Assembly: GCA_046290225.1 (NCBI GenBank)
Contig: JBKAGE010000044.1
Coordinates: forward strand, 34,431-98,430
Origin: Bradymonadia bacterium
Lineage (GTDB): Bacteria > Myxococcota_A > Bradymonadia > UBA7976 > UBA1532
Direction: 5' to 3'
Length of the DNA stretch: 64,000 bases
The notes beneath the pieces are model-generated. The model was not told the origin of the DNA, did no database searches, and was given only the letters and a program-made list of their open reading frames with translations. This document shows positions 40,378 through 62,069 of the stretch, piece by piece. Position numbers and translations under genes: made by a program. Positions within the stretch are counted from its first letter, which is position 1. Each line of letters begins with the position of its first letter.

Positions 40378-40542
40378 TTACACACCTGCAGCAAACAACA
40401 AACACACCTTTGTATCGTCAAGTCTGATTGCTGCATTTTCCATGGCGGATCGACACATCTGCCGATAGCATGTATGGCTAAGTCTGTTTCGTTCGCACAT
40501 CGATGACTTCACCCATAGCTGTGGGTGAAGAGGACCTGCTGT

Positions 40543-43500
40543 ATGCGCAATCTTCACCTCCTCGCCTTGTCCAGCCTGGGCTTGGGACTCGCCATCACCG
40601 CCCTCCCAACGGCCGCATCTGCAGAGCATCGCTGTGCAGTGTTGAGCGATGGCAGCGTCAAATGCTGGGGCAACAACGGCAATGGCCAGCTCGGTCAGGG
40701 CGACACCTCCAACCGCGGCATCTATGCGCCAGAGACCTATGGGGCACTCCCAGGTATCTCGCTCGATGGCCAAGCCACGGCGATCTCCACCGGTGGAGAT
40801 CACGCCTGCGCAGTGTTGGACGATGGCAGCGTCAAATGCTGGGGGCTCAACAACTACGGCCAGCTCGGTCAGGGTGACACCTCATATCGTGGGGATCACG
40901 CCAACGAGATGGGGGCCAACCTCGCGCCCATCTCTCTCGGTGCCGGCGCTGCAGCGGTGGACGTCACCGGCGGCGCCCAGCACACCTGTGCCACCCGTGC
41001 CGACGGCAGCGTCAAATGCTGGGGCCGCAACGACTATGGCCAGCTCGGCCTTGGCCACACCACCCGCACCGGCGATCACGCCAACGAGATGGGCGACAAC
41101 CTCGCACACATCGACTTCGGTGATGGCCGCTCGGCGGTCTCGGTGTTCTCCAGCGCCGAGAGTGACTTCAGCTGTGCGATCCTGAACGACGGCGCCGTGA
41201 AGTGCTGGGGCTACAACTCCAATGGCCAGCTCGGCCAGGGTGATACCCAGAACCGCGGCTGGCGGCCCCCGGAGATGGGCGGCGATCTCACCGCCATCGA
41301 TCTCGATGGAGACGCCACTCAGGTGTCTACTGGTGAGCACCATGTCTGCGCCCTGCTCGATGACGGCAGCGTCAAGTGCTGGGGCCGCAACAACTATGGC
41401 CAGCTCGGTCAATCGGACACAGCTCAGCGGGGCGATCACGCCAACGAGATGGGCGCAGCGCTCGATGGCGTCGATCTCGGTACCAACCGTACGGCCACTG
41501 ATGTCGCCACAGGTGCCCAGCACAACTGTGTCCTGCTCGACGACAACAGCATCAAATGTTGGGGCCGCAACGACTATGGTCAGCTCGGCCTCGGCCACAC
41601 GACTCGCCTCGGCGATCACGCCAATGAGATGGGTGACAACCTCGGCACCGTGAACCTCGGCACGGGCTATACCGCCGCTGACGTCGACGCCAACAACCAG
41701 ACCGCATGCGCGATCCTGAACAATGGCGACGTGAAGTGCTGGGGCTACAACGCCAATGGCCAGCTCGGCCAGGGTGACACCCACAACCGTGGCAACATCG
41801 CCCCCGAGATGGGCGGTGACCTGCCCGATACGGTGCCTGATGGCTCGCAGGCTGTGGCTCAGGCCGACGCGGGCCTCTTCTCCATGTGCGCCCGCCTCGC
41901 TGACGGCAGCGTGAGATGCTGGGGCCGCAACAACTATGGCCAGCTCGGCTATGGCGACACCACCCAACGGGGTGATCATGCCGGTGAGATGAGCGGCCTC
42001 GGCAACGTGGATCTCGGCACAGGTCGCACTGCCACTGACATCACCAGCGCCGACTACCATGCCTGTGCGGTGTTGGATCATGGCGGCATCAAGTGCTGGG
42101 GCCGCAATGACTATGGTCAGCTCGGCATCGGCAGCACCACCCGCCTCGGCGATCACGCCAACGAGATGGGTGACAACCTGCCCACCATCAACCTCGGCAC
42201 TGGCTACACCGCCGCTGACGTGGTGAGCAACGGCAACACCAGCTGCGCGATCCTGAACACAGGCGAGGTGAAGTGCTGGGGTTACAACTCCAATGGCCAG
42301 CTCGGCCAGGGCGACACCCACAACCGCGGCATCATCCCCCCGGAGATGGGTGGTGATCTGCCTGACGTGGAGATCACCCCCGGACTGGAGACCACCCAGC
42401 TCTCTGGTGGTGACAACTACACCTGCGCCCTGCTCGAAGACGGCACGGTGAAGTGCTGGGGTCGCAACAACTACGGCCAGCTCGGCTACGGCGACACCAC
42501 CCAACGGGGTGATCACGCCGGCGAGATGAGCGGCCTCAACCCTGTGGACCTCGGCACGGGCGCTCTGGCCTCGGCCCTCGGCAACGGCGGCCAGCACAGC
42601 TGCGCTCTCCTCAACAATGGCAGCATCAAATGCTGGGGCCGCAATGATTATGGTCAGCTCGGCATCGGCAGCACCACCCGCCTGGGCGATCACGCCAACG
42701 AGATGGGCGACAACCTGCCCACCATCAATCTCGGCACTGGCTACACCGCAGCCGCCATCGCCTCGGGCAACCAGAGCAACTGCGCGATCCTGAACAATGG
42801 CGATGTGAAGTGTTGGGGCTACAACGCCAATGGCCAGCTCGGCCAGGGCGATACCCACAACCGTGGCAACACCCCCGAAGAGATGGGTGGCCAGCTGACC
42901 GACATCGACGTGGGCACGGGCCTCACGCTGCTCAAGGCAGCCGGCGGACTTCATCACACCTGTGGTCTCACCGCTGGTGGTGAGGTGAAGTGCTGGGGCC
43001 GCAACAGCAACGGCGCCCTCGGCCTCGGTGACACCTCACATCGCGGGGATCACGCCAACGAGATGGGCGACGCCTTGGACCCTGTCGATCTCGGCACGGG
43101 GCTCACCGCCACCGACATCGCAACGGGCAACTATCACGGCTGCGCGGTGCTCAACACGGGTGACGTAAAGTGCTGGGGCTACAACGGCCTGGGCCAGCTC
43201 GGCATCGGCAACACCACCAATCAGGGTGATCATCTCAACGAGCTGGGCGACAACCAGCCCACCGTCAACCTCGGCACTGGCTACACCGCCACCTCCATCG
43301 ATGCCCAGGAGGATACGAGCTGTGCACTCTTGAACGACGGCTCGGTGAAGTGCTGGGGCTCCAACAGCTACGGGCAGCTGGGCCAGGGCGACAGCATCAA
43401 CCGTGGCACCATCTCCCCTGAGATGGGTGGCGAGCTGCCTGACGTCGCTTTGGGCACGAACCTGGCGCTGACCAAGGCGGTGGCGGGGCAGGATCACACC

Positions 43501-46500
43501 TGCGGCCTGACGGAAGACGGCGAAATCAAGTGCTGGGGCCGCAACACTCACGGCGTGCTCGGCCTCGGTGACACCTCTCATCGCGGCGACCACGCCAACG
43601 AGATGGGCGATGCCCTGGACCCTGTGGACCTCGGCACCGGCCGCACCGCCACTGACGTTGCCACGGGCGGCTACCATGGTTGCGCCATCCTCGACACCGG
43701 CGACGTGAAGTGTTGGGGCTACAACGGACTTGGCAACCTCGGCATCGGCAACACCACCAATCAAGGTGATCATCTCAACGAACTCGGTGACAACCTGCCC
43801 GCCGTCAACCTTGGCACTGGCTACACAGCCACCTCCATCGACGCCAAAGAGAGCACCACCTGCGCCATCCTCAACACTGGTGACGTCAAGTGCTGGGGCT
43901 CCAACAGCAATGGCCAGCTCGGTCAGGGTGACACCCTCAGCCGCGGCACGGTCACAGAAGAGATGGGCGGCAAGCTCCCCGATGTCGTTTTGGGGACGAA
44001 CGTGGCGCTGACCAAAGCGGTTGCGGGTCAGGATCACACCTGCGGTCTGACAGAAGACGGCGAGATCAAATGCTGGGGGCGCAACACTCACGGCGTACTC
44101 GGCCTCGGCGACACCTCCCATCGTGGTGACCACCCCAACGAGATGGGCGATGCCCTGGACCCTGTGGACCTCGGCACCGGCCGCACCGCCACTGACGTCG
44201 CCACGGGCGGCTACCATGGCTGCGCCATCCTCGACACCGGCGATGTCAAATGCTGGGGCTACAACGGACTCGGCAACCTCGGCATCGGCAACACCACAAA
44301 CCAGGGTGATCACCCCAACGAGCTCGGTGACAACCAGCCCGTCGTGAACCTCGGCACCGGCTACACAGCCACCTCCATCGACGCCAAAGAGAGCACCACC
44401 TGTGCGATCTTGAACGACGGCTCTGTGAAGTGCTGGGGTGCCAACGACTACGGGCAGCTGGGTCAGGGCGACACGCTCAGTCGCGGCACCATCGCCTCCG
44501 AGATGGGCGGTGCTCTGCCCGATGTCGCTTTGGGGACGAACGTAGCGCTGACCAAGGCGGTTGCGGGTCAGGATCACACCTGCGGCCTGACGGAAGACGG
44601 CGAAATCAAGTGCTGGGGCCGCAACACTCACGGCGTGCTCGGCCTCGGCGACACCTCCCATCGTGGTGACCACGCCAACGAGATGGGTGATGCCCTGGAC
44701 CCTGTGGACCTCGGCACCGGCCGCACCGCCACTGACGTTGCCACGGGCGGCTACCACGGTTGCGCCATCCTCGACACCGGCGACGTGAAGTGTTGGGGCT
44801 ACAACGGACTTGGCAACCTCGGCATCGGCAACACCACCAATCAAGGTGATCATCTCAACGAACTCGGTGACAACCTGCCCGCCGTCAACCTTGGCACTGG
44901 CTACACAGCCACCTCCATCGACGCCAAAGAGAGCACCACCTGCGCCATCCTCAACACTGGTGACGTCAAGTGCTGGGGCTCCAACAGCAATGGCCAGCTC
45001 GGTCAGGGCGACGCCATCAGCCGCGGCACCATCACCCCCGAGATGGGTGGTGCTCTGTCCAACATCGATCTCGGCCCTGGGCTGACCGTCACCAAGGCCG
45101 TCTCGGGCACAGGTCACACGTGCGCTCAGTTGAGCGACGGGGTCGATACGGGCATCGTGAAGTGCTGGGGCCGCAACAGCTATGGCAACCTCGGCCTCGG
45201 TGACACCGCGCACCGTGGGGATCACGCCAACGAGATGGGCGCCCCCCTGCCCGCTGTCGATCTCGGCACGGGCCGGAGCGCATCGGATCTGATCTCAGGT
45301 GCACACCATACGTGCGCCGTCCTCGATGACGACACGTTGAAGTGCTGGGGGCTCAACGCCAACGGCCAGCTCGGCCAGGGCGACACCACCTACCGCGGTG
45401 ATCATGCCAACGAGATGGGCGACAACCTCACCACCATCGACCTGGGTACTCAGGGCACTCTGGCCTCGGCAGCAGCGGGTGGCTCCACCAGCTGCGCCCT
45501 GTTGAGCAATGGCGACGTGAAGTGCTGGGGCTACAATGGCTACGGCAACCTCGGCCAGGACGACACCCTCGACCGCGGCACCATCGCCCCGGAGATGGGC
45601 CGAGATTTGCTCGATGTCGATCTGAACGGTGCAGTGACCGCGCTGGCCACTGGTCAGGACTTCGCCTGTGCTCTGCTTCAGAGTGGCCAGGTCCAGTGTT
45701 GGGGCCGGAACAACTATGGCCAGCTCGGCCTCGGTGACACCTCGCATCGTGGCGATCATGCCAATGAGATGGGCGTGGCGCTGCCCACAGTCGACCTCGG
45801 CACTGGGCGCTCTGCTCAGCAAATCGCCGCCGGTGACTTCCACACTTGTGCGATCCTCGACGACGGTACGCTGAAGTGCTGGGGCCTCAACAACTATGGT
45901 CAGCTCGGCCAGGGCGACACCACCTACCGCGGTGATCACGCCAACGAGATGGGCGACAACCTCTCCGCCATCGACCTGGGTGCTGGTCGCTCCGCCGTGG
46001 CTGTCACGGTGGGCGCCAGCCACACGTGTGCCCTGCTCGATGACGACACGGTGAAATGCTGGGGCTACAACGGCTATGGCAACCTCGGCTATGGCGACAC
46101 CGCCAGCCGCGGTGACGCCGCCAACGAGATGGGCGACAACCTCGCCGCCATCGATCTCGGCGATGGCGCCCAAGCCATCTCTGCCAGCACGCATCACACC
46201 TGCGCCCTGCTGAACAGCGGCGCGGTGAAGTGCTGGGGTCGCAACAACAATGGGCAGCTCGGCGTCGGCAACACCACCCAATACGGTGACGGCGCCAACG
46301 AAATGGGCGCCAACCTGCCTGCCGTCAACCTCGGCACCGGCCTCACCGCCCAGCAGATCACCACTGGCTTGCATTACACCTGCGCTCTGTTGAGCGACGA
46401 CAACGTGAAGTGTTGGGGTCGCAACAACTATGGCCAGCTCGGTGTCGGCCACACCAGCGCTCGAGGCACCAGCGGCGGCCACATGGGCGACAACCTCGCC

Positions 46501-49500
46501 TACGTCGACCTCGGTGCAGGTGCAACGGTCAGCGACATCAGCGCCACCCACGATCACACCTGCGCCACCCTCACCAATGGCGACGTAAAATGCTGGGGCT
46601 ACAACGCCAACGGTCAGCTCGGCGTGCTCAGCACCGACAACCGCGGTGATGCAGCAAACGAGATGGGTGATCTTCTCCCAGCAGCGCGCGTGGCCCCCGG
46701 CTTGAACCTCACGTCGGCTTCAGCCGGTGGTCGATTCAGCTGTGGCATCACCCAGGCAGGGGCTGTGAAGTGTTGGGGCTACAACGGCTACGGCAACCTC
46801 GGCTATGGCGACACCACTCAACGTGGTGATGTGACCGGCGGCCTCGGTGACGACACGCCCCCCATCCTCTTGGGACAGGCAGCCACGCAACTCTCTGTCG
46901 GCCAGCATCACACCTGCGCCCTGCTCGACGACGGCTCAGCAAAGTGCTGGGGCCGCAACAACTACGGCCAGCTCGGTGTCGGCAACACCACTCAGTACGG
47001 TGACAGCCGCGGTGAAATGGCCAGTCTGCCCACCATCAGCGTCGGCACGGGTCGTACCGTCGCCGAGATAGGCGTCGGCCATCATCACACGTGTGCGCTG
47101 CTGGACAATGGCGGTGTGAAGTGCTGGGGCCGTAATGACTTTGGCCAGCTCGGTGTGAGTCACAGCAGCGCCCGAGGCTCCAGCAGCAGTCACATGGGTG
47201 ACAACCTCGCTTACGTTGACCTCGGCACGGGCCGCACCGCCACTGACATCGAGGTGGGCAACCATCACACCTGCGCCGTGCTCGACAACGGCCGCACCAA
47301 GTGCTGGGGCTACAACAACAATGGCCAGCTCGGTGTACTCAGCACCGACAACCGCGGTGACGCCGCCAACGAGATGGGTGATCTCTTGCCTGAGGTCAGC
47401 CTGCTCTACACGCAGGGCGTATCGCAGGTCACCACAGGCGATCTGCACAGCTGCGCTGTCTTCTCAGGAGGCCAGATGCAGTGCTGGGGCTACAACGGCT
47501 ATGGCCAGCTCGGGCAGAACGACACCACGCAGCGTGGCGATGTCACTGGCGGCCTGGGCGACGACACACCCCCCATCCTCCTCGGTCAGGCTGCAACTCA
47601 GGTCTCAGTGGGCACGTATCACGCATGCGCGGTGCTGGCAGACGGCTCAGCGAAGTGCTGGGGCTACAACGGCTACGGCAACCTCGGCGTCGGCAACACG
47701 ACTCAGTATGGTGACAGCCGCGGCGAGATGGCCGCCCTGCCCACCATCAACCTTGGCGCTGGTCGTACAGTCACTGAGATCGACCTCGGCCATCATCACA
47801 CGTGCGCACTGCTCGACAATGGCGGTGTGAAGTGCTGGGGTCGCAATGACTTTGGCCAGCTCGGTGTCGGTCACACCAGCACCCGAGGCTCCAGCAACAG
47901 CCATATGGGCGACAACCTTGCCTACGTCGACCTCGGTACGGGGCGCACCGCTGTCGACATCGAGGTGGGCGGTCACCATGCTTGCGCCACCTTGGACAAC
48001 GGCCGCACCAAGTGCTGGGGCCGCAACAGCAACGGTCAGCTCGGCGTGCTCAGCACCGACAACCGCGGTGATGCAGCAAACGAGATGGGTGATCTCCTGC
48101 CTGAGGTGAACCTGCTCTACACGCGGAACGTGATTCAGTCTGTTTCGGGCATCAATCACAGCTGCGCCGTCTTCGCTGATGGTCAGATTCAGTGCTGGGG
48201 CTACAACGGCTACGGCCAGCTTGGCCAGAACAACACCACACAGCTCGGCGATGTCACAGGCGGTATGGGCGACGATACGCCCCCCATCCTCCTTGGTCAG
48301 GCCGCTACGCAGGTCTCTGTGGGCACGTATCACGCATGCGCGGTGCTGGCAGACGGCTCAGCGAAGTGCTGGGGCTACAACGGCTACGGCAACCTCGGCA
48401 CCGGCAACACCACTCAATACGGTGACAGCCGCGGCGAGATGGCCGCCCTGCCCACCATCAACCTCGGCGCCGGCCTCACTGTTGCCGAAATCGGCGCAGG
48501 CCATCATCACACATGTGCACTGCTCAACAATGGCGGGGTGAAGTGCTGGGGCCGCAACGACTTCGGCCAGCTCGGCCAGGGCAACACCAGCACCCGTGGC
48601 GACAGCATCAGCGAGATGGGCGACAACCTCGCCTATGTCGATCTTGGCACTGGCCGTACCGCTGTCGACATCGAGGTGGGCGGTCACCATGCTTGCGCCA
48701 CCTTGGACAACGGCCGCACCAAGTGCTGGGGCCGCAACAACCATGGCCAGCTTGGCGTGCTCAGCACCGACAACCGCGGTGACGCCGCCAACGAGATGGG
48801 CGATCTCCTGCCTGAGGTCAATCTGCTCTACACGCGGAACGTGATTCAGTCTGTTTCGGGCATCAATCACAGCTGCGCAGTCTTCGCTGATGGTCAGATT
48901 CAGTGTTGGGGCTACAATGGCTACGGCCAGCTCGGCCAGGAAGACACCCAAGCACGTGGTGATGTCACTGGCGGTATGGGCGACGACACGCCCCCCATCC
49001 TCCTGGGTCAGGCAGCCACGCAGGTCTCAGTGGGTACGTATCACGCGTGCGCGGTGCTGGCAGACGGCTCGGCAAAGTGCTGGGGCTACAACGGCTACGG
49101 CAACCTCGGCACTGGTAACACCACTCAATACGGTGACAGCCGCGGTGAGATGGCCGCCCTGCCCACCATCAACCTCGGCGCCGGCCTCACTGTCTCTGAG
49201 ATCGGTGCAGGGGTACATCACACGTGTGCGCTGCTCAACAACGGTGGGGTGAAGTGCTGGGGCCGAAACGATTATGGCCAGCTCGGTGTGAGTCACAGCA
49301 GCACTCGAGGCTCCAGCAGCAGTCACATGGGTGACAACCTCGCCTATGTCGACCTTGGCACCGGACGTACCGCCACCGACATCGAGGTGGGCGGTCACCA
49401 TGCTTGCGCTACTTTGGATAACGGCCGCACCAAGTGCTGGGGCCGTAACAACCATGGCCAGCTTGGCGTGCTCAGCACCGACAACCGCGGTGACGCCGCC

Positions 49501-52500
49501 AACGAGATGGGCGATCTCCTGCCTGAGGTCAATCTGCTCTACACGCGGAACGTGATTCAGTCTGTTTCGGGCATCAATCACAGCTGCGCCGTCTTCGACG
49601 ATGGTCAGATTCAGTGCTGGGGCTACAACGGCTACGGCCAGCTCGGCCAGAGCGACACTCAAACACGTGGCGATGTCACTGGTGGTATGGGCGACGACAC
49701 GCCTCCCATCCTCCTTGGTCAGGCCGCTACGCAGGTCTCCGTCGGCAACTACCATGTGTGTGCAGTGCTGGCGGATGGCTCGGCGAAGTGCTGGGGTTAC
49801 AATGGCTACGGTAACCTCGGCGTCGGCAACACGACTCAGTATGGTGACAGCCGCGGCGAAATGGCCGCCCTGCCCACCATCAATCTCGGCGCCGGCCGCA
49901 CTGTCTCTGAGATCGGCACAGGCATCCATCACACGTGCGCGCTGCTGGACAATGGCGGTGTGAAGTGCTGGGGCCGTAACAACTATGGCCAGCTCGGCCA
50001 GGGGAACACCAGCCAGCGCGGCGACAGCATCAGCGAGATGGGCGACAACCTCGCCTATGTCGATCTCGGCGCGGGCCGTACCGCCACCGACATCGAGGTG
50101 GGCGGTCATCATGCCTGCGCAGTGCTCGACAACGGACGCACCAAGTGCTGGGGCCGCAACAACACTGGCCAGCTTGGCGTGCTCGGCACCGACAACCGCG
50201 GTGACGCAGCCAACGAGATGGGTGATCTCCTGCCTGAGGTCAACCTGCTCTACACCCGTAACGTCACGCACACCATCACGGGCACGAACCACAGCTGTGC
50301 CCTCTTCACTGATGGCCAGATGCAGTGCTGGGGCTACAACGGCTATGGCCAGCTCGGCACCGAGAGCACAACACAGATCGGCGATGTCACGGGTGGCATG
50401 GGCGATGACACGGCGCCGGTCATCCTGGGGCAAGCGGCGACGCAGGTGTCGGTGGGCGATCATCACACGTGCGCGGTGTTGGCTGACGGCTCAGCGAAGT
50501 GCTGGGGCTACAACGGCTATGGCCAGCTCGGCCAGGGCAACTCGACGCAGTACGGTGACAACCCTGGCGAGATGGCCAGCCTCACACCCATCAGCCTCGG
50601 CGCGGGCCGCACCGTCACCCAGATCGGCGCCGGGCAGTATCACACCTGCGCTTTGCTCGATAACGGCCGCGTGAAGTGCTTCGGCTACAACAACGTCGGC
50701 CAGCTTGGCTACGGCTACACCAGCAACCGTGGCACCAGCCACAGCCACCTGGGTGACAACCTCGCCTATGTCGACCTCGGCAATGACGCCAATGGTGATC
50801 CGTTGCTCGCCACGCAGATCTCGGTGGTGAACGATCACAGCTGCGCCCGACTCAGCACCGGCCGGGTGAAGTGCTGGGGCCGCAACAGCAACGGTCAGCT
50901 CGGCGTGCTCAGCACCGCTCACCGCGGCGACAACAGCAACGAGATGGGTGATCTCCTGCCCGAGGTCAGCCTGCTCTACGATCGGCCAGTGGCGGCGGTC
51001 ACAGCCTTTGGCCACCAGGCCTGCGCCCTGCTCGCTGACGGCGCGGTGCAGTGCTGGGGCTACAACGGCTATGGCCAGCTCGGATATGACGACACTCAGC
51101 GGCGCGGTGATGTCACCGGCGGCATCGGCGACGACACACCCCCGATCTTCCTGGGTACGGGCCGCACCGCTACGCAGGTGTCGGTGGGTGCGCTCCACGC
51201 CTGTGCCGTGCTCGACGACCAGACTTTGAAGTGTTGGGGCTACAATGGCTATGGCCAGCTCGGCCTGGGCAACACCACTCAGTACGGTGACAACCCCGGC
51301 GAGATGGTCAGCCTCAACACCGTCAACCTCGGCACCCAGGGCTTCCCGGTTCAGGTGGGTACCGGTGACAACCACAGCTGCGCCCGCCTCAACACCGGCC
51401 GCATCAAGTGCTGGGGTCGCAACAACTACGGCCAGCTGGGTCAGGGGAACACCAGCCAGCGCGGCGACAGCATCAGCGAGATGGGCGACAACCTCGCCTT
51501 CACCGACCTGGGCACTGACGGCAACGGCGATCCGCTCACAGCCACGCACCTCGACGTGGGCCCCAACCACGCCTGCGCCACCCTCACCACGGGCCGCATC
51601 AAGTGCTGGGGCCGTAACAACACGGGTCAGCTGGGCGTTCAGGCCACCGACAGCCGCGGTGATTCAGCCAACGAGATGGGCAACCTGCTGCCTGAGGTCA
51701 ACCTGCTCACCGATCGAGCAGCGGTCTCCACCCTGGCCGGTGGCAACTACACCTGCGCCCATCTCGAAGATGGTGCCCTCAAGTGCTGGGGCTACAACGG
51801 CTACGGCAACCTCGGCCTCGAGAACACTGTGCAGCGCGGCGATGCCACGGGCGGTATGGGCGACGACACGGCGCCGATCATCCTGGGGCAGGCAGCGACG
51901 CAGGTGTCGGTGGGGGATCATCACACGTGCGCGGTGCTGGCAGACGGCTCGGCGAAGTGCTGGGGCTACAACGGCTACGGCCAGCTCGGCCAGGGCAACT
52001 CGACGCAGTACGGCGACAACCCTGGCGAGATGGCCAACCTTTCGGCCATCAACCTCGGCGCGGGCCGCACCGTCACTCAGATCGGCGCCGGGCAGTATCA
52101 CACCTGTGCTTTGCTCGATAACGGCCGCGTGAAGTGCTTCGGCTACAACAACGTCGGCCAGCTTGGCTACGGCTACACCAGTAATCGCGGCACCAGCAGC
52201 AGCCACATGGGCGACAATCTCGCCTACGTCGACCTCGGCAATGATGCCCTTGGAGATCCGCTCACAGCTCTGAGCATCGACGTGGATTACGATCACACCT
52301 GTGCACAGCTCGCCAACGACACTGTTCGGTGCTGGGGTCGTAACAGCAACGGCCAGCTCGGCGCCCTCGACACCGCCCACCGCGGAGACAACAGCAACGA
52401 GATGGGCGACAACCTGCGCCCCACGCAGATCCCTGCAGGGGTGGCCGCGCTCTCCATGGGCGGCTCTTCCAGCTGCGCCCTCTATGCCGACGGCGCCGTG

Positions 52501-55500
52501 CGGTGCTGGGGCTACAACGGCTACGGCAACCTCGGACAAGGCGACACCAACACGCGAGGGAACGACGCTGGCGGTCTCGGCGACGAGCTCCAGCCGATCC
52601 GTCTGGGCACCGGCCGCACGGCCACTCAGGTGGCCCTCGGCTGGGGTCACGCCTGTGCCCTGCTCGATGATGGTGGGGTGAAGTGCTGGGGCTACAACGG
52701 CTACGGTCAGCTCGGCACTGGCAACACCACTCAGTACGGTGACGCCTACGTGGAGATGGGCGACAACCTCGCCTATGTGAACCTCGGCGGCGTGGCCGCG
52801 GTGGACATCAGCGCCAACTACAACTCCACCTGCGCCCTGCTCAGCAACGGCGACACCAAGTGCTGGGGTCGCAGCAACGTCGGCCAGCTCGGCCAGGGCA
52901 GCACCAGCACCCGAGGCGACAGCAGCAGCGAGCTGGGCAACAACCTCGCCACCACCGATCTCGGCTCGGGTGTGGTCACCGGCAGCCTCTACGGTGGCTA
53001 CCAGCACAGCTGTGCCCTTTTCGCAGACGGCACCGCCCGATGCTGGGGCCGCAACAGTTATGGTCAGCTCGGCATCATGACCACCGATCATCGCGGCGAT
53101 GCTGCGAACGAGATGGGTGATCGCCTGCCCCTCGCCCGCGTGGATCGTACGCGGGCCATGACCGAGATGGCCCTGGGCACGCACTTCAGTTGTGGTCTGC
53201 TCGCGGACGGCACGGTGAAGTGCTGGGGCCAGAACAACTACGGCCAGCTCGGCTATGGCGACACGCTCACTCGGGCAGAGCTGCGCGGTGGCTTCGGCGA
53301 AGACACCGACATCCTCGATCTGGGCACAGGCCGTACGGCGCAGACCGTCACTCAGGGGCGCTACCACAGCTGCGCCATCCTCGACGATGACACACTGAAG
53401 TGCTGGGGCTACAACGGCTATGGCCAGCTCGGCCAGGGCAACTCGACCCAGATGGGCGATCACTATGGCGAGATGGGCGATGACCTCCCGGCCATCAACC
53501 TCGGCACAGACGAGGCCGGTGACACCCACACCGTGGCTGCGGTCACCGGCGGCGAGTATCACACCTGCGCGCTGCTGGGGAACGACCGGGTGAAGTGCTG
53601 GGGCTACAACAACTATGGCAACCTCGGCCTCGGCTACACCAGCACCCGCGGCACCAGCAGCAGCCACATGGGCGACAACCTCGCCTATCTCGACCTCGGC
53701 ACCGACGGCAACGGAGATCCCCTTGCAGTCTCGGCGATCTCTGCTGGCGCACATCACACCTGCGCCATGTTCGAGAGCGGCGGGGTGAAGTGCTGGGGCC
53801 GCAACAACAACGGTCAGCTCGGCTACGGCGACACCAGCTCCCGTGGGGATCACGCCAACGAGATGGGCGACAGCCTCGCCTATGTCGACCTTGGGGTCGG
53901 CCGCACAGCGCAGATGATCACCACCGGCGACCGTCACAGCTGCGCCATGCTCGACAACAACCAGGTGAAGTGCTGGGGCTACAACCACTATGGCAACCTC
54001 GGCCTCGGCGACAACAACGCCCGCGGTGACGCCGCCAACGAGATGGGCGACGATCTGCCCCCGGTGGATCTCGGCACGGGCCGGGTGGCCCGCTCGGTGA
54101 CGGGTGGCCAGTTCTCCACCTGTGCCATCCTCGACACGGGCGACGTGAAGTGCTGGGGCTATAACAGCTACGGCGATCTCGGCCTCGGCGATACGTCTCA
54201 CCGAGGCGATCATGGGGGTGAGCTCGGCGATAACTTGCCCACTGTGGATCTCGGCACCGACGAGGCGGGCGACCCGCTCACAGCGGCGGTGCTCAGTGCC
54301 AGCATCTACAACGTCTGCGCCCTGCTCAGCGACGACACGGTGAAGTGCTGGGGCCGCAACAATGCCGGTCAGCTCGGTCAGAACGACACCGCCAACCGCG
54401 GGGATCACGCCAACGAGCTCGGCGACAACCTGCCCCCCATCGACTTCGGTGATGGGCTGTCCATCGACCTGTACAATGGTCTGTCGAATGGTCGCCCGGG
54501 CATCGGTTGTGACGACGCAGATCGCGACGGGCTCTGCGACGGGGGCGACAACTGCCCCCTCGTGCCCAACGTCACTCAGTCCGATCTCGATCAGGATGGC
54601 CAGGGCGACGCCTGCGACGCTTGCCCCACCGACGCCCTCAACGACGTGGATGGTGATGGCGTCTGCGGCGACGTGGACAACTGCCCTGTGACGAACAACC
54701 CCTTGCAGATCGACGCCGATCTCGACGGGGCGGGTGACGCCTGTGACCTGTGCGCCTACGACTTCTACGATGACATCGACAACGATGGCATCTGCGGCGA
54801 CGTGGACAACTGCCCCACGGTCATCAACCCGGATCAGGTCGACGACAACGGCGACGGCTATGGCGACGCCTGCGTGAGCCCCACGGCGGACATCGGCGAC
54901 GACGTGCGCATCGAGGGTGACGTGGTCCTGGGCCCCAACGCCGTCATCGGCGACGAGTCGATCATCCAGAACGGCGCCAACGTCGGCGGCATCCTCGGCC
55001 GCAAGAACTTCATCGGTGAGAATGCCATCGTACCCGAAGGCTGCGTGCTGGCCGATCTGGTGTACATCGGTGCGAACACAGTGCTCGAGGCGCCCTGCAA
55101 CATCGGTGAGCTGACCCGCATCGAGGCCAACAGCCACGTCTCGAGCGACGCGGTCATCGGCGCCCGGAACGCCATCGGCTCAGGCACCACCATCCACCCC
55201 AGGGTGCAGACCTCTGGCGGCGTGATCATCGGTGCTGACTCCACCATCGGCGCTGACACCGTCTTGGGGACCAACGCCGCCTTCGGCGCTCGGGCCAACA
55301 TCGGTGAGGACACCACCGTCGAGTCCAACGTGATCGTCGGCGACGATGTGCAGACCGGCACGGGGGTGAGCCTGCTGGCCAACGCAGTCATGGGTCATCG
55401 TGTCACCCTCGCCGACGCAGTGGTGGTCTCCACCTATGCCCGGGTGAGCGACGATGTCTCTGTCGGTGCCCGCAGCCGCCTCGCAAGCGGCTCCGTCGTC

Positions 55501-56130
55501 GGCGCGAGCTCCACCATCGGGGCCGACTCCGAGGTCCGCGGTGCTGTGGGCGACTCGGTGCAGCTGGGCAACAACGTCTTCATAGGGAACCAGAGCAGCG
55601 TCGGTGATCTGAGCACCCTCGACGACGGCGTCACACTGGGGATCTTCGTGCAGATCGACGTGCAGAACCACCTGCGGGCCAACGTGACGGTCTACGACAA
55701 GGTCACCATCGGCCCCGACGGCGACCTCGGTGCCAACACCCTGGTGCTCTTCTTTGCGGAGATCGGCGCCCGGGCCCAGGTGGGCGCCGAGGGCCTCATC
55801 GACGAAGCCAATGTCATCGGCGACGACTTCACCATGGGCACCAACAGCCGCATCTGGCCTCGGGGGCAGCTGGGCAACAACGTCACCTTCGGCGACGGTG
55901 TGCTGGTGCGGGATCACAGCAACATCGGCGACGATGTCACGCTGGAAGACGGCGTCATCGCCTACCCCTACACCACCATCGGTGCTCAGACGACGGTCCG
56001 GGCGGGGGTGGGCCTCGGGGTGGCGATTTGCGCCACTCAGCGATGTGGTGAGGTCACCCTCGGGGGCTGCCTCGACATCGACTCGGACGTCGACGTCGGC
56101 GTGGAGATGGCCGACGCCTGCAACCCCTGA
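40543..56130 (+). CDS. Giant secreted RCC1-repeat protein (77 blades) with thrombospondin type-3 repeats and a C-terminal left-handed beta-helix
   Basis: Signal peptide; 77 C-W/F-G.N..G.LG repeats by manual count; DNCP/GDACD repeats at 54508-54873; hexapeptide I/V-G repeats at 54874-56130. Confidence 0.95.
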   Translation: MRNLHLLALSSLGLGLAITALPTAASAEHRCAVLSDGSVKCWGNNGNGQLGQGDTSNRGIYAPETYGALPGISLDGQATAISTGGDHACAVLDDGSVKCWGLNNYGQLGQGDTSYRGDHANEMGANLAPISLGAGAAAVDVTGGAQHTCATRADGSVKCWGRNDYGQLGLGHTTRTGDHANEMGDNLAHIDFGDGRSAVSVFSSAESDFSCAILNDGAVKCWGYNSNGQLGQGDTQNRGWRPPEMGGDLTAIDLDGDATQVSTGEHHVCALLDDGSVKCWGRNNYGQLGQSDTAQRGDHANEMGAALDGVDLGTNRTATDVATGAQHNCVLLDDNSIKCWGRNDYGQLGLGHTTRLGDHANEMGDNLGTVNLGTGYTAADVDANNQTACAILNNGDVKCWGYNANGQLGQGDTHNRGNIAPEMGGDLPDTVPDGSQAVAQADAGLFSMCARLADGSVRCWGRNNYGQLGYGDTTQRGDHAGEMSGLGNVDLGTGRTATDITSADYHACAVLDHGGIKCWGRNDYGQLGIGSTTRLGDHANEMGDNLPTINLGTGYTAADVVSNGNTSCAILNTGEVKCWGYNSNGQLGQGDTHNRGIIPPEMGGDLPDVEITPGLETTQLSGGDNYTCALLEDGTVKCWGRNNYGQLGYGDTTQRGDHAGEMSGLNPVDLGTGALASALGNGGQHSCALLNNGSIKCWGRNDYGQLGIGSTTRLGDHANEMGDNLPTINLGTGYTAAAIASGNQSNCAILNNGDVKCWGYNANGQLGQGDTHNRGNTPEEMGGQLTDIDVGTGLTLLKAAGGLHHTCGLTAGGEVKCWGRNSNGALGLGDTSHRGDHANEMGDALDPVDLGTGLTATDIATGNYHGCAVLNTGDVKCWGYNGLGQLGIGNTTNQGDHLNELGDNQPTVNLGTGYTATSIDAQEDTSCALLNDGSVKCWGSNSYGQLGQGDSINRGTISPEMGGELPDVALGTNLALTKAVAGQDHTCGLTEDGEIKCWGRNTHGVLGLGDTSHRGDHANEMGDALDPVDLGTGRTATDVATGGYHGCAILDTGDVKCWGYNGLGNLGIGNTTNQGDHLNELGDNLPAVNLGTGYTATSIDAKESTTCAILNTGDVKCWGSNSNGQLGQGDTLSRGTVTEEMGGKLPDVVLGTNVALTKAVAGQDHTCGLTEDGEIKCWGRNTHGVLGLGDTSHRGDHPNEMGDALDPVDLGTGRTATDVATGGYHGCAILDTGDVKCWGYNGLGNLGIGNTTNQGDHPNELGDNQPVVNLGTGYTATSIDAKESTTCAILNDGSVKCWGANDYGQLGQGDTLSRGTIASEMGGALPDVALGTNVALTKAVAGQDHTCGLTEDGEIKCWGRNTHGVLGLGDTSHRGDHANEMGDALDPVDLGTGRTATDVATGGYHGCAILDTGDVKCWGYNGLGNLGIGNTTNQGDHLNELGDNLPAVNLGTGYTATSIDAKESTTCAILNTGDVKCWGSNSNGQLGQGDAISRGTITPEMGGALSNIDLGPGLTVTKAVSGTGHTCAQLSDGVDTGIVKCWGRNSYGNLGLGDTAHRGDHANEMGAPLPAVDLGTGRSASDLISGAHHTCAVLDDDTLKCWGLNANGQLGQGDTTYRGDHANEMGDNLTTIDLGTQGTLASAAAGGSTSCALLSNGDVKCWGYNGYGNLGQDDTLDRGTIAPEMGRDLLDVDLNGAVTALATGQDFACALLQSGQVQCWGRNNYGQLGLGDTSHRGDHANEMGVALPTVDLGTGRSAQQIAAGDFHTCAILDDGTLKCWGLNNYGQLGQGDTTYRGDHANEMGDNLSAIDLGAGRSAVAVTVGASHTCALLDDDTVKCWGYNGYGNLGYGDTASRGDAANEMGDNLAAIDLGDGAQAISASTHHTCALLNSGAVKCWGRNNNGQLGVGNTTQYGDGANEMGANLPAVNLGTGLTAQQITTGLHYTCALLSDDNVKCWGRNNYGQLGVGHTSARGTSGGHMGDNLAYVDLGAGATVSDISATHDHTCATLTNGDVKCWGYNANGQLGVLSTDNRGDAANEMGDLLPAARVAPGLNLTSASAGGRFSCGITQAGAVKCWGYNGYGNLGYGDTTQRGDVTGGLGDDTPPILLGQAATQLSVGQHHTCALLDDGSAKCWGRNNYGQLGVGNTTQYGDSRGEMASLPTISVGTGRTVAEIGVGHHHTCALLDNGGVKCWGRNDFGQLGVSHSSARGSSSSHMGDNLAYVDLGTGRTATDIEVGNHHTCAVLDNGRTKCWGYNNNGQLGVLSTDNRGDAANEMGDLLPEVSLLYTQGVSQVTTGDLHSCAVFSGGQMQCWGYNGYGQLGQNDTTQRGDVTGGLGDDTPPILLGQAATQVSVGTYHACAVLADGSAKCWGYNGYGNLGVGNTTQYGDSRGEMAALPTINLGAGRTVTEIDLGHHHTCALLDNGGVKCWGRNDFGQLGVGHTSTRGSSNSHMGDNLAYVDLGTGRTAVDIEVGGHHACATLDNGRTKCWGRNSNGQLGVLSTDNRGDAANEMGDLLPEVNLLYTRNVIQSVSGINHSCAVFADGQIQCWGYNGYGQLGQNNTTQLGDVTGGMGDDTPPILLGQAATQVSVGTYHACAVLADGSAKCWGYNGYGNLGTGNTTQYGDSRGEMAALPTINLGAGLTVAEIGAGHHHTCALLNNGGVKCWGRNDFGQLGQGNTSTRGDSISEMGDNLAYVDLGTGRTAVDIEVGGHHACATLDNGRTKCWGRNNHGQLGVLSTDNRGDAANEMGDLLPEVNLLYTRNVIQSVSGINHSCAVFADGQIQCWGYNGYGQLGQEDTQARGDVTGGMGDDTPPILLGQAATQVSVGTYHACAVLADGSAKCWGYNGYGNLGTGNTTQYGDSRGEMAALPTINLGAGLTVSEIGAGVHHTCALLNNGGVKCWGRNDYGQLGVSHSSTRGSSSSHMGDNLAYVDLGTGRTATDIEVGGHHACATLDNGRTKCWGRNNHGQLGVLSTDNRGDAANEMGDLLPEVNLLYTRNVIQSVSGINHSCAVFDDGQIQCWGYNGYGQLGQSDTQTRGDVTGGMGDDTPPILLGQAATQVSVGNYHVCAVLADGSAKCWGYNGYGNLGVGNTTQYGDSRGEMAALPTINLGAGRTVSEIGTGIHHTCALLDNGGVKCWGRNNYGQLGQGNTSQRGDSISEMGDNLAYVDLGAGRTATDIEVGGHHACAVLDNGRTKCWGRNNTGQLGVLGTDNRGDAANEMGDLLPEVNLLYTRNVTHTITGTNHSCALFTDGQMQCWGYNGYGQLGTESTTQIGDVTGGMGDDTAPVILGQAATQVSVGDHHTCAVLADGSAKCWGYNGYGQLGQGNSTQYGDNPGEMASLTPISLGAGRTVTQIGAGQYHTCALLDNGRVKCFGYNNVGQLGYGYTSNRGTSHSHLGDNLAYVDLGNDANGDPLLATQISVVNDHSCARLSTGRVKCWGRNSNGQLGVLSTAHRGDNSNEMGDLLPEVSLLYDRPVAAVTAFGHQACALLADGAVQCWGYNGYGQLGYDDTQRRGDVTGGIGDDTPPIFLGTGRTATQVSVGALHACAVLDDQTLKCWGYNGYGQLGLGNTTQYGDNPGEMVSLNTVNLGTQGFPVQVGTGDNHSCARLNTGRIKCWGRNNYGQLGQGNTSQRGDSISEMGDNLAFTDLGTDGNGDPLTATHLDVGPNHACATLTTGRIKCWGRNNTGQLGVQATDSRGDSANEMGNLLPEVNLLTDRAAVSTLAGGNYTCAHLEDGALKCWGYNGYGNLGLENTVQRGDATGGMGDDTAPIILGQAATQVSVGDHHTCAVLADGSAKCWGYNGYGQLGQGNSTQYGDNPGEMANLSAINLGAGRTVTQIGAGQYHTCALLDNGRVKCFGYNNVGQLGYGYTSNRGTSSSHMGDNLAYVDLGNDALGDPLTALSIDVDYDHTCAQLANDTVRCWGRNSNGQLGALDTAHRGDNSNEMGDNLRPTQIPAGVAALSMGGSSSCALYADGAVRCWGYNGYGNLGQGDTNTRGNDAGGLGDELQPIRLGTGRTATQVALGWGHACALLDDGGVKCWGYNGYGQLGTGNTTQYGDAYVEMGDNLAYVNLGGVAAVDISANYNSTCALLSNGDTKCWGRSNVGQLGQGSTSTRGDSSSELGNNLATTDLGSGVVTGSLYGGYQHSCALFADGTARCWGRNSYGQLGIMTTDHRGDAANEMGDRLPLARVDRTRAMTEMALGTHFSCGLLADGTVKCWGQNNYGQLGYGDTLTRAELRGGFGEDTDILDLGTGRTAQTVTQGRYHSCAILDDDTLKCWGYNGYGQLGQGNSTQMGDHYGEMGDDLPAINLGTDEAGDTHTVAAVTGGEYHTCALLGNDRVKCWGYNNYGNLGLGYTSTRGTSSSHMGDNLAYLDLGTDGNGDPLAVSAISAGAHHTCAMFESGGVKCWGRNNNGQLGYGDTSSRGDHANEMGDSLAYVDLGVGRTAQMITTGDRHSCAMLDNNQVKCWGYNHYGNLGLGDNNARGDAANEMGDDLPPVDLGTGRVARSVTGGQFSTCAILDTGDVKCWGYNSYGDLGLGDTSHRGDHGGELGDNLPTVDLGTDEAGDPLTAAVLSASIYNVCALLSDDTVKCWGRNNAGQLGQNDTANRGDHANELGDNLPPIDFGDGLSIDLYNGLSNGRPGIGCDDADRDGLCDGGDNCPLVPNVTQSDLDQDGQGDACDACPTDALNDVDGDGVCGDVDNCPVTNNPLQIDADLDGAGDACDLCAYDFYDDIDNDGICGDVDNCPTVINPDQVDDNGDGYGDACVSPTADIGDDVRIEGDVVLGPNAVIGDESIIQNGANVGGILGRKNFIGENAIVPEGCVLADLVYIGANTVLEAPCNIGELTRIEANSHVSSDAVIGARNAIGSGTTIHPRVQTSGGVIIGADSTIGADTVLGTNAAFGARANIGEDTTVESNVIVGDDVQTGTGVSLLANAVMGHRVTLADAVVVSTYARVSDDVSVGARSRLASGSVVGASSTIGADSEVRGAVGDSVQLGNNVFIGNQSSVGDLSTLDDGVTLGIFVQIDVQNHLRANVTVYDKVTIGPDGDLGANTLVLFFAEIGARAQVGAEGLIDEANVIGDDFTMGTNSRIWPRGQLGNNVTFGDGVLVRDHSNIGDDVTLEDGVIAYPYTTIGAQTTVRAGVGLGVAICATQRCGEVTLGGCLDIDSDVDVGVEMADACNP
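43441..45060 (+). repeat. Three near-identical 540-bp (3-blade) units
   Basis: GGATCACACCTGCGG recurs at 43491, 44031 and 44571. Confidence 0.92.
47540..49690 (+). repeat. Three near-identical 711-bp (4-blade) units
   Basis: ACGCGGAACGTGATTCAGTC recurs at 48121, 48832 and 49543. Confidence 0.92.
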
Positions 56131-56729: not shown

Positions 56730-56782
56730 TCTGCCTCTTGCCGGGGGTGCGGTGCCCCCGGCGCCCTTCTCAAGGCCCCACC

Positions 56783-58096
56783 ATGAAGCTCGTCCCCCTC
56801 GTCCGCACTGTGTGTCAGCGGGATCGCACCGCTCGGCCTCAACCCGATCTGCACGATCACGATGCATTCGAGCGCTGGCTCAACGGCACCCTCGAGCGGC
56901 GGGGCCACGCCTTTGGTATGCCCGAAGACATTCTCGGGATCCTCGGCGAGAACGGCGACAACGTCGCCTACAACATCTACACCCTGCAAAACGCCACCGC
57001 CCACATGCTCGACCTCGGCGCCGCGGTGCTCACTGCCCCGGGGCTCTCGATGGAGAGCGAAGAAATCCCTCGTCGGCTCGTGCTGGTGATTGCGCTGTGG
57101 CTCGACGAGGCCGGCTGGATCGAAGAGGCCACCCACCTCGTCGATGCAGAGCCCGATCAAGACATGTCCAAGCTGGTCACTCAGCTGGGCAGTCAGCTGG
57201 GCGCCGCCCTCGCTGATCGAGCGCTCCCTGCAGGGCACCCGTTGCTGGGTCACCCGTTCCATCAGATGTTGCTCTTCAACGACGCCCGGGCCTTCGCCCG
57301 CATCGCCCGCATCACGGCCCTGGCCACCGAGCGTCTAGGTGGTATGCCCGAGCAGGCAGAGGTCATGCGGGCCCTGGGCATCGCCCGCAGTGACCTGCAT
57401 CACGCCTTGTCGGCGTGTGTGGCCCTCACCGCCGCCGACGGGGTCATCGAGCCTCGAGAGCGACGCCTCATCGAGGCGCTCTCTGAAGCCTCTCGCCTCT
57501 CGGAAGAGGAGCAGGCCATGATGGAGTGGGAGTTCGACCACCCCGTCTCCCCGGCCCAGCTCGGCGAAGACGTCACCGATCCAGCCTGGCGGCGGGCGAT
57601 CCTCCGCTTGCTCTGTCTCGCTGCTGGCGTAGACGGTGAGGTCGCACCTCCAGAGCAGCTGTACCTCGAAGCCCTCGCCGAAGCCTTCGAGACCTCTGCA
57701 GAGGCACTGAGCGTCTACGAGGTCGAGGCCCTGATCCATCTACAACAACATGCTCGCCTCGACGAAGCCTTCACCCTCGCTGGCCGCCTGAGCCGGCTCA
57801 GGCTTCGGCTCTCCGATCGAATCGAAGATGTCATCCGAGAAAACTCGACCAGGCTCTGGTCGGAGATCAAGCAAACCAGCGAGCTGGGCCAGCTGCTCGC
57901 CAAAGCCAGCGTCGAGAACCTCACCGAGGCCGAGCGCGCTCAAGCGCAAAGACAACTGCTCGATCTCTGCCGCGCTGTGCCTGCCCTGGCCATCTTCGCC
58001 GCCCCTGGCGGCGCGATTCTCCTGCCCCTGCTCGTGAAGCATCTGCCATTTCAGATCGTACCGAGCAGCTTCGCCGATGAAGAGCAGACTCTGTAG
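56783..58096 (+). CDS. TerB-like domain plus LETM1-like C-terminal domain
   Basis: ADGVIEPRE and VDGEVAPPE; C-terminal QLLDLCRAVPALAIFAAPGGAILLP...PSSF. Confidence 0.78.
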   Translation: MKLVPLVRTVCQRDRTARPQPDLHDHDAFERWLNGTLERRGHAFGMPEDILGILGENGDNVAYNIYTLQNATAHMLDLGAAVLTAPGLSMESEEIPRRLVLVIALWLDEAGWIEEATHLVDAEPDQDMSKLVTQLGSQLGAALADRALPAGHPLLGHPFHQMLLFNDARAFARIARITALATERLGGMPEQAEVMRALGIARSDLHHALSACVALTAADGVIEPRERRLIEALSEASRLSEEEQAMMEWEFDHPVSPAQLGEDVTDPAWRRAILRLLCLAAGVDGEVAPPEQLYLEALAEAFETSAEALSVYEVEALIHLQQHARLDEAFTLAGRLSRLRLRLSDRIEDVIRENSTRLWSEIKQTSELGQLLAKASVENLTEAERAQAQRQLLDLCRAVPALAIFAAPGGAILLPLLVKHLPFQIVPSSFADEEQTL

Positions 58097-62010: not shown

Positions 62011-62069
62011 CATGGTCTCAGGTGTCACCGCGGCCCGGTAGAGCCGCCCCCAACCTCTGGAGATCACTC

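What the first reader, a model, noticed from the sequence alone, without database searches (positions are those of the whole stretch)
43441..49690. Matched triplications in the two arms of the giant gene
Seen: three near-identical 540-bp units in the outgoing arm (TKAVAGQDHTCGLTEDGEIK x3; groups 17-19, 20-22, 23-25) and three near-identical 711-bp units in the returning arm (YTRNVIQSVSGINHSCAVF x3; groups 40-43, 44-47, 48-51). These are the groups that pair with each other in the nested model. Inference: lengthening needed two matched duplications kilobases apart, or repeated insertion of a propeller into a loop. This supports the topology independently and suggests an unusual, coupled mode of length change.
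Basis: partly seen in the sequence, partly recalled or inferred. Interest (0 to 1): 0.8.

Follow-up and report, generated by a model that had tools for sequence, protein, structure and literature searches.

The report
Nested out-and-back β-propeller ladder
A giant bacterial gene encodes 77 propeller blades that repeat in threes in its first half and in fours in its second half, with exactly ten 'junction' blades in each half. The protein likely folds out and back as eleven nested seven-bladed rings, so it would only lengthen when both halves gain a unit, an architecture I did not find described.

Summary
The 5,195-aa gene has 77 (11x7) RCC1-type repeats: period 3 in the first half, period 4 in the second. 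Ten variant 'C' loops sit at repeats 1, 4...28 and ten 'D' loops at 35, 39...71, with 7 repeats between the sets and 6 after. A paralog in the same genome obeys the same rule at another length: 56 repeats, 7 C and 7 D. This supports nested rings of 3 outgoing plus 4 returning blades (about 80%). Structure prediction did not confirm it: AlphaFold2 was uninformative and the two-chain fold gave weak support. The triplets are real (91-97% and 91-94% aa) and sit on the same three rings. They are the cores of longer graded arrays, diverged at silent sites, so not a simple assembly artefact. Their fine histories are not mirror images: the out arm groups rings 6/8 and 7/9, the return arm 7/8. In the paralog the youngest pairs are offset by one ring. 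Most likely ordinary repeat recombination, filtered by folding, keeps the counts equal. A one-step double crossover is not excluded. Growth by insertion at the tip is not supported. No reads or strains were available.

The parts
40543..56130 (+). Giant gene, 5,195 aa (P0002): signal peptide, 77 RCC1-type repeats, TSP3-like repeats, hexapeptide tail
   Evidence: ORF; repeats; Pfam
40543..40623 (+). Likely signal peptide, ending ...ASA; the mature chain would start at the second strand of repeat 1
   Evidence: Read by eye; same layout in most single-ring paralogs; no predictor run
40624..40719 (+). Repeat 1 (N-terminal part of inferred base ring 1), with the first C loop
40720..42867 (+). Out-arm 3-repeat units for rings 2-5 (534-540 bp each)
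42868..43407 (+). Out-arm unit, ring 6 (540 bp; 78% aa to the triplet; shares its 3' part with ring 8)
43408..45027 (+). Out-arm triplet, rings 7, 8, 9 (3 x 540 bp; repeats 17-25); 251-nt exact tract shared by rings 7 and 9
45028..45579 (+). Out-arm unit, ring 10 (58-60% aa to the triplet)
45580..46827 (+). Inferred tip ring 11: seven contiguous repeats (29-35); repeat 31 has the ordinary loop where the next C loop would fall
   Evidence: topology inferred
46828..47538 (+). Return-arm unit, ring 10 (711 bp; 79-83% aa to rings 6-9)
47539..49671 (+). Return-arm triplet, rings 9, 8, 7 (3 x 711 bp; repeats 40-51)
49672..50382 (+). Return-arm unit, ring 6 (711 bp; 85-87% aa to the triplet)
50383..53277 (+). 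Return-arm 4-repeat units for rings 5-2; rings 3 and 5 are 80% aa alike
53278..54495 (+). Six repeats (72-77) and a final strand that would close base ring 1 with repeat 1
   Evidence: closure inferred
54496..54890 (+). Asp/Cys-rich thrombospondin type 3-like repeats (approximate limits)
   Evidence: Pfam TSP_3, E 6.8e-08
54891..56127 (+). Hexapeptide (left-handed beta-helix-like) tail, shared with dozens of genes of this genome
   Evidence: Pfam Hexapep, E 2.6e-36; 49 matches in G000

Best explanation
The gene's 77 repeats come in ten 3-repeat and ten 4-repeat steps, and the likely secreted protein is predicted to fold out and back as eleven nested seven-bladed rings (three blades laid outward, four on the return), whose two arms likely stay equal in count because folding selects against unmatched products of ordinary repeat recombination. 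Shown: the repeat counts, periods, loop positions, the same rule in a shorter paralog, and the mosaic, non-mirror histories of the arms. Inferred: the chain leaves each ring in the long loop after the third strand (C loop outward, D loop on return). Each ring is thus joined to the next by two linkers on roughly opposite sides. Both termini lie at the base with the TSP3/hexapeptide tail, and ring 11 is the tip; the rod would be about 50 nm long if the rings lie edge to edge (ring size recalled). An extra 3-blade unit leaves a half ring unless a 4-blade unit is added too. It must be added at about the same rung, where its partner surfaces fit. That would put the youngest copies of both arms on the same or adjacent rings without any special machinery. 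Gene conversion within each arm then scrambles the fine history. The likely role is a surface stalk or adhesin that holds protein-binding RCC1-type faces away from the cell; the ligand is not known.
For: Exactly 77 repeats; out-arm identity peaks at lag 3 (0.70 vs 0.48-0.49) and return-arm at lag 4 (0.70 vs 0.43-0.46), with none at lag 7. C loops at 1, 4...28 and D loops at 35, 39...71. The same loop rules hit 2 and 6 of 1,879 control repeats from 198 other proteins (the rules were written after seeing the ladder, so only the control counts are a test). Paralog G000:C36:69437-81331: 56 repeats, C at 1...19, D at 26...50, again 7 between and 6 after (my D rule catches 5 of those 7, repeats 26 and 30 were assigned by register and by eye). 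Fragment P0242 from another organism: D at 1, 5, 9, 13, 17, then 6 repeats and the same tail. The tip position has the ordinary loop in both genes. The family is otherwise 7-fold: 124 of 169 homologs have a multiple of 7 anchors, and the C77 paralog is plain tandem with linkers. Of 143 entries with 19 or more repeats, only the two ladder genes show both periods. Youngest units are age-matched between arms in both genes. Mosaic histories. Two-chain fold of rings 6+7 (out chain against return chain): weak support, score 0.37, best of 3 controls 0.00, runs agree in at least 25% of contacts, partner pLDDT at least 68. That mark was reached by 116 of 157 solved and 2 of 215 mismatched pairs, but at 0.60 or under by only 18 solved and both mismatches; likeness to solved RCC1 rings may explain it.
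Against: No structure shows the nesting. The AlphaFold2 model of repeats 26-39 (pLDDT 81.7, pTM 0.65) gave no match range for the predicted tip ring (model residues about 190-605). Single-ring structures fitted ranges 44-461, 400-818, 441-841 and 20-841 alike. That is a sequential i/i+7 register and suggests the two rings overlap in space. 23 of the 30 alignment rows were 14-repeat homologs, presumably tandem, which biases it that way; I could not see coordinates. Equal counts also follow from any multiple-of-7 rule. Only two complete genes, both in one genome, test the count rule. Stepwise and one-step recombination cannot be told apart from these sequences. Both arms also carry traces of two-ring steps (lag 6 in the out arm; a lag-8 alternation in one return blade), which a coupled event would also give.
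Confidence: 0.58

Rival explanations
1. Same nested ladder, but length changes in one step: a double crossover or double-strand gap repair between sister copies, with one end misaligned in the out arm and the other in the return arm, swaps the inner 'doll' for a larger one. This is the coupled mode the first reader suggests.
For: The youngest copies of both arms are of like age and on the same or adjacent rings in both genes. An offset of up to one ring is what arbitrary crossover points would give. Both arms hold traces of two-ring steps: 24 of 32 out-arm sites, and 8 clustered return-arm sites at unit positions 327-393.
Against: The dominant quartet differs between arms. Ring 10 is homogenised in the return arm only. 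No recombinase or transposase family appeared among the 38 window ORF translations scanned (not every ORF was scanned). Later conversion could hide a coupled event, so this is not excluded.
Confidence: 0.2
2. Ordinary tandem rings of seven consecutive repeats. The 3- and 4-repeat periods are only duplication history, and a 4-repeat gain restores the seven-fold register broken by a 3-repeat gain.
For: Arithmetic: total = 3nC + 4nD + 7 is a multiple of 7 whenever nC = nD mod 7. Homologs are mostly tandem. The AlphaFold2 model took a sequential register.
Against: No lag-7 signal and no linkers every seven repeats, unlike the C77 paralog. C and D loops are kept at strict periods in two paralogs whose units are about 50-60% alike and in another organism. 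The 1 / 7-between / 6-after boundaries have no reason under this reading.
Confidence: 0.11
3. The ladder grows by repeated insertion of a whole propeller into the loop of the tip ring.
For: The tip ring is contiguous and has an ordinary loop at the insertion register. A single such insertion is known in Trm734 (PMC6847430, passages) and may have founded the ladder.
Against: It predicts the youngest units at the tip. Ring 10 and the tip are only 65% (out) and 61% (return) alike, while the youngest units are mid-ladder in both genes.
Confidence: 0.04
4. The out arm forms six-bladed rings (2 x 3) and the return arm eight-bladed rings (2 x 4), with no pairing between arms.
For: Lag-6 and lag-8 identities are nearly as high as lag 3 and lag 4 in this gene (76 vs 78; 78 vs 78% nt).
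Against: The paralog has 7 and 7 junction loops (odd) and weaker lag 6 and lag 8 (72 vs 75; 69 vs 74). The family is seven-fold. It does not explain equal counts.
Confidence: 0.03
5. The copy numbers are assembly artefacts.
For: A 251-nt exact repeat between rings 7 and 9 could mislead a short-read assembler. No reads could be laid on the gene.
Against: Every copy has private sites (55/12/8 of 540 and 24/49/34 of 711, over half of them silent). The frame is open throughout with no N. An error would have to land on exactly 10 = 10, and the far more diverged paralog gives 7 = 7.
Confidence: 0.04

Closest known systems
RCC1/BLIP-II beta-propeller repeats (Pfam PF00415, PF13540, PF25390; UVR8, HERC RLD)
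   Same: Blade sequence and fold: Pfam hits; model fits UVR8 at Z 27.4, rmsd 1.8 A over 351 residues.
   Different: Known members build each ring from seven consecutive repeats; here the periods are 3 and 4 and the rings are inferred to be discontinuous.
Giant RCC1-repeat proteins of Oscillospiraceae (10.1101/2023.11.21.568195; passages read)
   Same: Very long extracellular proteins made of RCC1 repeats.
   Different: The passages describe a single repeating domain along the length; no 3/4 periodicity or nesting is mentioned in what I read.
Highly repetitive propellers (Pereira and Lupas 2022, PMC9218822; passages and section 3.2 read)
   Same: Recent amplification of propeller blades; AlphaFold models of long arrays collapse into each other.
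   Different: They report at most 47 similar blades and a single case of amplification from a 2-blade unit. Here the units are complementary 3- and 4-blade blocks kilobases apart. Their supplements were not read and could hold such a case.
Trm734/WDR6 triple WD40 propeller (PMC6847430; passages)
   Same: One propeller (BPB) is entered by its d strand and left by its c strand, inserted between strands c and d of another: the same kind of crossing I infer.
   Different: One level of insertion, WD40 family, no repeat array; here 7 to 10 levels.
Streptococcal antigen I/II stalk (PMC3178794; passages) and chemoreceptor hairpins with symmetric heptad indels (PMC5907407; passages)
   Same: Out-and-back chains whose two arms pair, with a domain or turn at the tip; chemoreceptor length changes by matched indels in both arms.
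   Different: Their arms are helices or polyproline; here each rung would be a globular ring completed from both arms. No homology is claimed.

Membership tests
RCC1/BLIP-II repeat propellers | RCC1 repeat sequence above the family cut-off | tested here: met
   RCC1_2 692 and 1,274 bits, RCC1 381 and 651 bits, WD40_RLD 749 and 1,609 bits for the two halves
RCC1/BLIP-II repeat propellers | Blades with the RCC1 fold closing a seven-bladed ring | tested here: met
   Predicted model only: UVR8 Z 27.4, rmsd 1.8 A, 351 aligned; 77 and 56 repeats are multiples of 7
Tandem multi-propeller RCC1 proteins | Period of seven repeats, often with linkers between rings | tested here: not met
   Lag-7 excess -0.05 and -0.04, lag-3 and lag-4 excess 0.22/0.24 and 0.11/0.15; spacing 58-65 residues throughout
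Tandem multi-propeller RCC1 proteins | Each ring made of seven consecutive repeats in 3D | tested here: inconclusive
   AlphaFold2 model fits single rings in overlapping registers, apparently collapsed; two-chain fold weakly supports arm pairing
Propeller-in-propeller insertion (Trm734/WDR6 type) | A ring entered and left through the c-d connection of another ring | tested here: inconclusive
   Variant loops lie after the third strand at the predicted positions; no coordinates or contacts were obtained
Propeller-in-propeller insertion (Trm734/WDR6 type) | WD40 family sequence | tested here: not met
   Repeats are RCC1-type; PF00400 not among the hits. It may work like Trm734 but is not a member.
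Hairpin stalks with matched arms (antigen I/II, chemoreceptors) | Length classes that differ by matched changes in both arms | tested here: met
   10/10 and 7/7 junction loops in two paralogs; n = 2, one genome
Hairpin stalks with matched arms (antigen I/II, chemoreceptors) | Helical or polyproline arms, family sequence | tested here: not met
   All-beta RCC1 repeats; no such Pfam hit. Analogy only.
Hairpin stalks with matched arms (antigen I/II, chemoreceptors) | Surface display and ligand binding at the tip | not testable with these tools
   Needs localisation and binding assays

The most novel reading that the evidence does not exclude
A recursively nested ('Russian doll') repeat-protein architecture: a double-stranded rod of up to eleven beta-propellers, each completed only when the returning chain meets the outgoing chain up to 12 kb of gene away. 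It gains or loses whole rings in single double-crossover events that duplicate a 540-bp and a 711-bp unit together.
Probability: 0.2. Interest if true: 0.9.

Novelty: new variant of a known kind. Interest (0 to 1): 0.74.

Why it matters
Propellers are 'almost always arranged sequentially' (PMC6805158; start of abstract in the search listing). A chain of 8 to 11 rings, each built from two distant segments, would be a new topology for a common fold. It raises a folding problem: up to 1,700 residues of half-rings wait for their partners during secretion. It gives a clean natural case of compensatory duplication, where two distant arrays in one gene must stay in register. It also offers a design principle: a doubly linked, length-tunable rod with both termini at one end, and split 3+4 propeller pairs. 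All of it is testable with fragments of 420-850 residues. The topology (about 80%) carries most of the interest. The special one-step length mechanism is the less likely part.

Tried and rejected
Reads: no run was listed for window 42500-51500; this is no evidence either way, and read laying was not used.

AlphaFold2 on the tip fragment without an alignment failed (pLDDT 31.9). Alignment A1 was not used for folding because all 13 out-arm rows landed on the return half. The fold with A2 was inconclusive.

More ladders were sought and not found in those searched:
- D-loop pattern: 19 single-match loci in genome contigs; 33 distinct loci in metagenome contigs, one with two matches that is an ordinary 7-repeat domain.
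- C-loop pattern: 3 of 112 other class genomes with one match each; 0 of 400 other phylum genomes with the stricter pattern.
- 40 relatives by protein: the long RCC1 proteins of G018 and G003 are separated 7-repeat blocks.
- Three homolog searches, best 120 each of 728, 7,703 and 6,941 hits, and the best 150 of 176,972 representatives (none of 105 new proteins had more than one C or D loop).
- The exact patterns miss diverged loops, and the ranked lists miss short fragments.

P0148 is an exact suffix of P0242, so the two count as one gene, and its out arm was not obtained. The ESM Atlas gave only generic RCC1 clusters. Earlier findings of the scan: none matched.

Literature: searches found no description of recursively nested propellers. 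The library lacks most subscription journals; no supplements were read. 10.64898/2026.05.19.725729 (passages) had nothing relevant.

Rejected: mirror-congruent unit trees at fine scale; recent growth at the tip; 6- and 8-bladed rings. I did not test residue covariation between arms: 15 related unit pairs are too few.
Full report
THE GENE. The finding lies inside one ORF, window 40525-56130 (+); the database's call is 5,195 aa, which fits the ATG at 40543. It has a likely signal peptide, RCC1-type repeats, TSP3-like repeats and a hexapeptide tail. Anchoring on C[WF]G gives exactly 77 repeats spaced 58-65 residues apart, with no linkers. Mean repeat identity peaks at lag 3 in repeats 1-33 (0.70 against 0.48-0.49 at lags 1, 2, 4, 5) and at lag 4 in repeats 34-77 (0.70 against 0.43-0.46). 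Lag 7 is at background (0.47, 0.45).

THE NESTED READING. The loop after the third strand departs from the family form (RGDxANEMGD-like) in two ways. A 'C' form occurs at repeats 1, 4...28 and a 'D' form at 35, 39...71, ten of each. Rules for these forms hit 2 and 6 of 1,879 control repeats from 198 other proteins; I wrote the rules after seeing the gene, so only the control counts test anything. Seven repeats separate the last C from the first D, and six follow the last D. This is what a ladder needs: ring 1 = repeats 1 + 72-77, ring 2 = 2-4 + 68-71, and so on to ring 10 = 26-28 + 36-39, with ring 11 = 29-35. The chain starts at the second strand of repeat 1, as most of the single-ring paralogs with the same tail do. 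Repeat 31, where an eleventh C loop would fall, has the ordinary loop (67% to ordinary repeats, 42% to C or D). The exact crossing point, in this loop rather than between blades, is inferred.

THE INDEPENDENT TEST. The same genome holds a paralog, G000:C36:69437-81331, with 56 = 8x7 repeats: C at 1...19, D at 26...50, 7 between and 6 after. My D rule catches 5 of these 7; repeats 26 and 30 carry a related variant and were assigned by register. A third long paralog (C77) is ordinary: blocks of seven with linkers. An unnamed fragment from another organism, P0242, has D loops at 1, 5, 9, 13, 17, then six repeats and the same tail. Its units match the C36 gene position by position (61-68%), but its out arm is missing. 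Among homologs 124 of 169 have a multiple of seven anchors, and of 143 entries with 19 or more repeats only the two ladder genes show both periods. In unit trees the out-arm units split by gene (SH-aLRT 99) and the return-arm units weakly so (66). So the two ladders were expanded or homogenised separately, differ by three units in each arm, and are both balanced. One caution: total = 3nC + 4nD + 7, so equal counts also follow from any need for a multiple of seven. The evidence that separates nesting from tandem rings is the missing lag-7 signal, the conserved 3- and 4-periodic loops and the boundary positions.

THE TRIPLETS. Rings 7-9 are the most alike in both arms: 91-97% aa and 87-96% nt (out), 91-94% aa and 87-91% nt (return). 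Ring 6 is next in both (78%; 85-87%). The two similarity matrices correlate in the nested register (Spearman 0.51, p 0.0015 for aa; 0.47, p 0.0013 for silent sites). Shifted registers give 0.08-0.36 for aa, but the reversed register gives 0.42 and the nt +1 shift 0.59 against 0.61, so this is modest support.

AGAINST STRICT MIRRORING. Ring 10 belongs to the cluster in the return arm (79-83%) and not in the out arm (58-60%). The closest pair is 7/9 in the out arm (96% nt) and 7/8 in the return arm (91% nt). Quartet sites for rings 6-9 favour 6,8|7,9 in the out arm (24 of 32) but 6,9|7,8 in the return arm (21 of 38; 9 for 6,8|7,9, eight of them in one 67-nt patch). Nearest neighbours change along the units, which is the pattern of gene conversion. 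In the paralog the youngest pairs are out rings 4/5 (84%) and return rings 5/6 (79%), and the best register is shifted by one (0.77 against 0.33). So counts match exactly, ages match roughly, positions match within one ring, and fine histories do not.

ARTEFACT? Unlikely. Each copy has private sites, over half of them silent. The longest exact repeat is 251 nt, the frame is open and there is no N. Reads could not be checked.

STRUCTURE PREDICTION. With a 30-row alignment, 23 rows of which were 14-repeat homologs (presumably tandem), repeats 26-39 folded at pLDDT 81.7, pTM 0.65. The blades match UVR8 (Z 27.4, rmsd 1.8 A, 351 aligned). Single-ring structures fit model ranges 44-461, 400-818, 441-841 and 20-841 equally well, and none fits the predicted tip ring alone. 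I read this as repeats i and i+7 overlapping, the collapse that Pereira and Lupas describe for long arrays (PMC9218822, section 3.2), but I could not see coordinates. It does not support nesting and, taken at face value, leans sequential. Folding the out chain of rings 6+7 against the return chain gave weak support: 0.37, best of three controls 0.00, runs agreeing in at least 25% of contacts, partner pLDDT at least 68. The mark was reached by 116 of 157 solved and 2 of 215 mismatched pairs, but at 0.60 or under by only 18 solved and both mismatches; no interface was given, and likeness to solved rings may explain the pass.

MECHANISM. Most likely (0.58): unequal recombination between direct repeats adds or removes units in either arm. 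An unmatched product leaves a half ring and is lost unless compensated, and compensation works best at the same or the next rung. Conversion within each arm then blurs the record. A one-step route exists (0.2): a double crossover with one misaligned end in each arm swaps the inner doll for a bigger one; these sequences cannot exclude it. Insertion at the tip may have founded the ladder but is not the recent mode, since the tip and ring 10 are 61-65% alike. The function is inferred to be a surface stalk or adhesin; the tail is shared by dozens of genes of this genome (49 matches). That hexapeptide helices often trimerise is recalled; if so, arms might also pair between chains.

NOVELTY AND RANGE. 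The blades are ordinary RCC1 repeats. One level of propeller-in-propeller insertion is known (Trm734, PMC6847430, passages). Matched length change in a hairpin is known for chemoreceptors (PMC5907407, passages), and an out-and-back stalk for antigen I/II (PMC3178794, passages). Eight literature searches found no recursively nested propeller chain; subscription journals and supplements were not covered. The architecture is rare in what was searched: two complete genes in this genome and one fragment elsewhere.

VERDICT. Observation partly confirmed; interpretation partly supported. Nested topology about 0.8; special one-step coupling about 0.2. Interest 0.74.

Noticed in passing
G000:C36:69437-81331 (L017:7438-19332): Second ladder gene: 56 repeats, 7 C and 7 D loops, same tail type; its youngest units are offset by one ring between arms.
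   Followed up: yes
G000:C77:71967-82577 (L018): A third giant RCC1 gene built the ordinary way: six blocks of seven repeats with Gly-rich linkers and the same tail.
   Followed up: partly
G000, many contigs (e.g. C35:168028-199067, C82:22988-43795): A large lineage-specific family of likely secreted proteins with a TSP3-like plus hexapeptide tail (49 matches), often in tandem clusters; about 20 carry a single RCC1 ring. In 30 other genomes of the order only the TSP3 part matched at E 1e-25.
   Followed up: partly
window 47122-53650 (repeats 37, 41, 45...73): One return-arm blade type alternates between two loop forms (His-type and Glu-type) from repeat 41 to 73, a two-ring period that the paralog lacks.
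   Followed up: partly
P0155, P0198, P0209, P0239 and 19 others: 23 homologs have 14 repeats with no linker between repeats 7 and 8; whether they are tandem or nested double propellers was not tested.
   Followed up: no
P0242 / P0148 (unnamed records): N-terminally truncated ortholog of the C36 ladder gene from another organism; the out arm may lie upstream on its 36-37 kb contig.
   Followed up: partly
window 62022-63182 (+): 386-aa ORF with Pacifastin, Kazal and Antistasin protease-inhibitor domains, an unusual animal-like mix for a bacterium.
   Followed up: no
window 27447-28730 (-) and 21595-24378 (+): Microbial-type PARG catalytic domain (E 1e-41) and an N6 DNA methylase-like protein, with several ORFs of no Pfam family nearby; possibly defence-related.
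   Followed up: no
window 25293-26639 (+) and 17413-18207 (+): Serine beta-lactamase-fold and metallo-beta-lactamase-fold proteins; family hits only, activity not examined.
   Followed up: no
window 56738-58096 (+): TerB/DUF533/LETM1-like protein just downstream of the giant gene.
   Followed up: no
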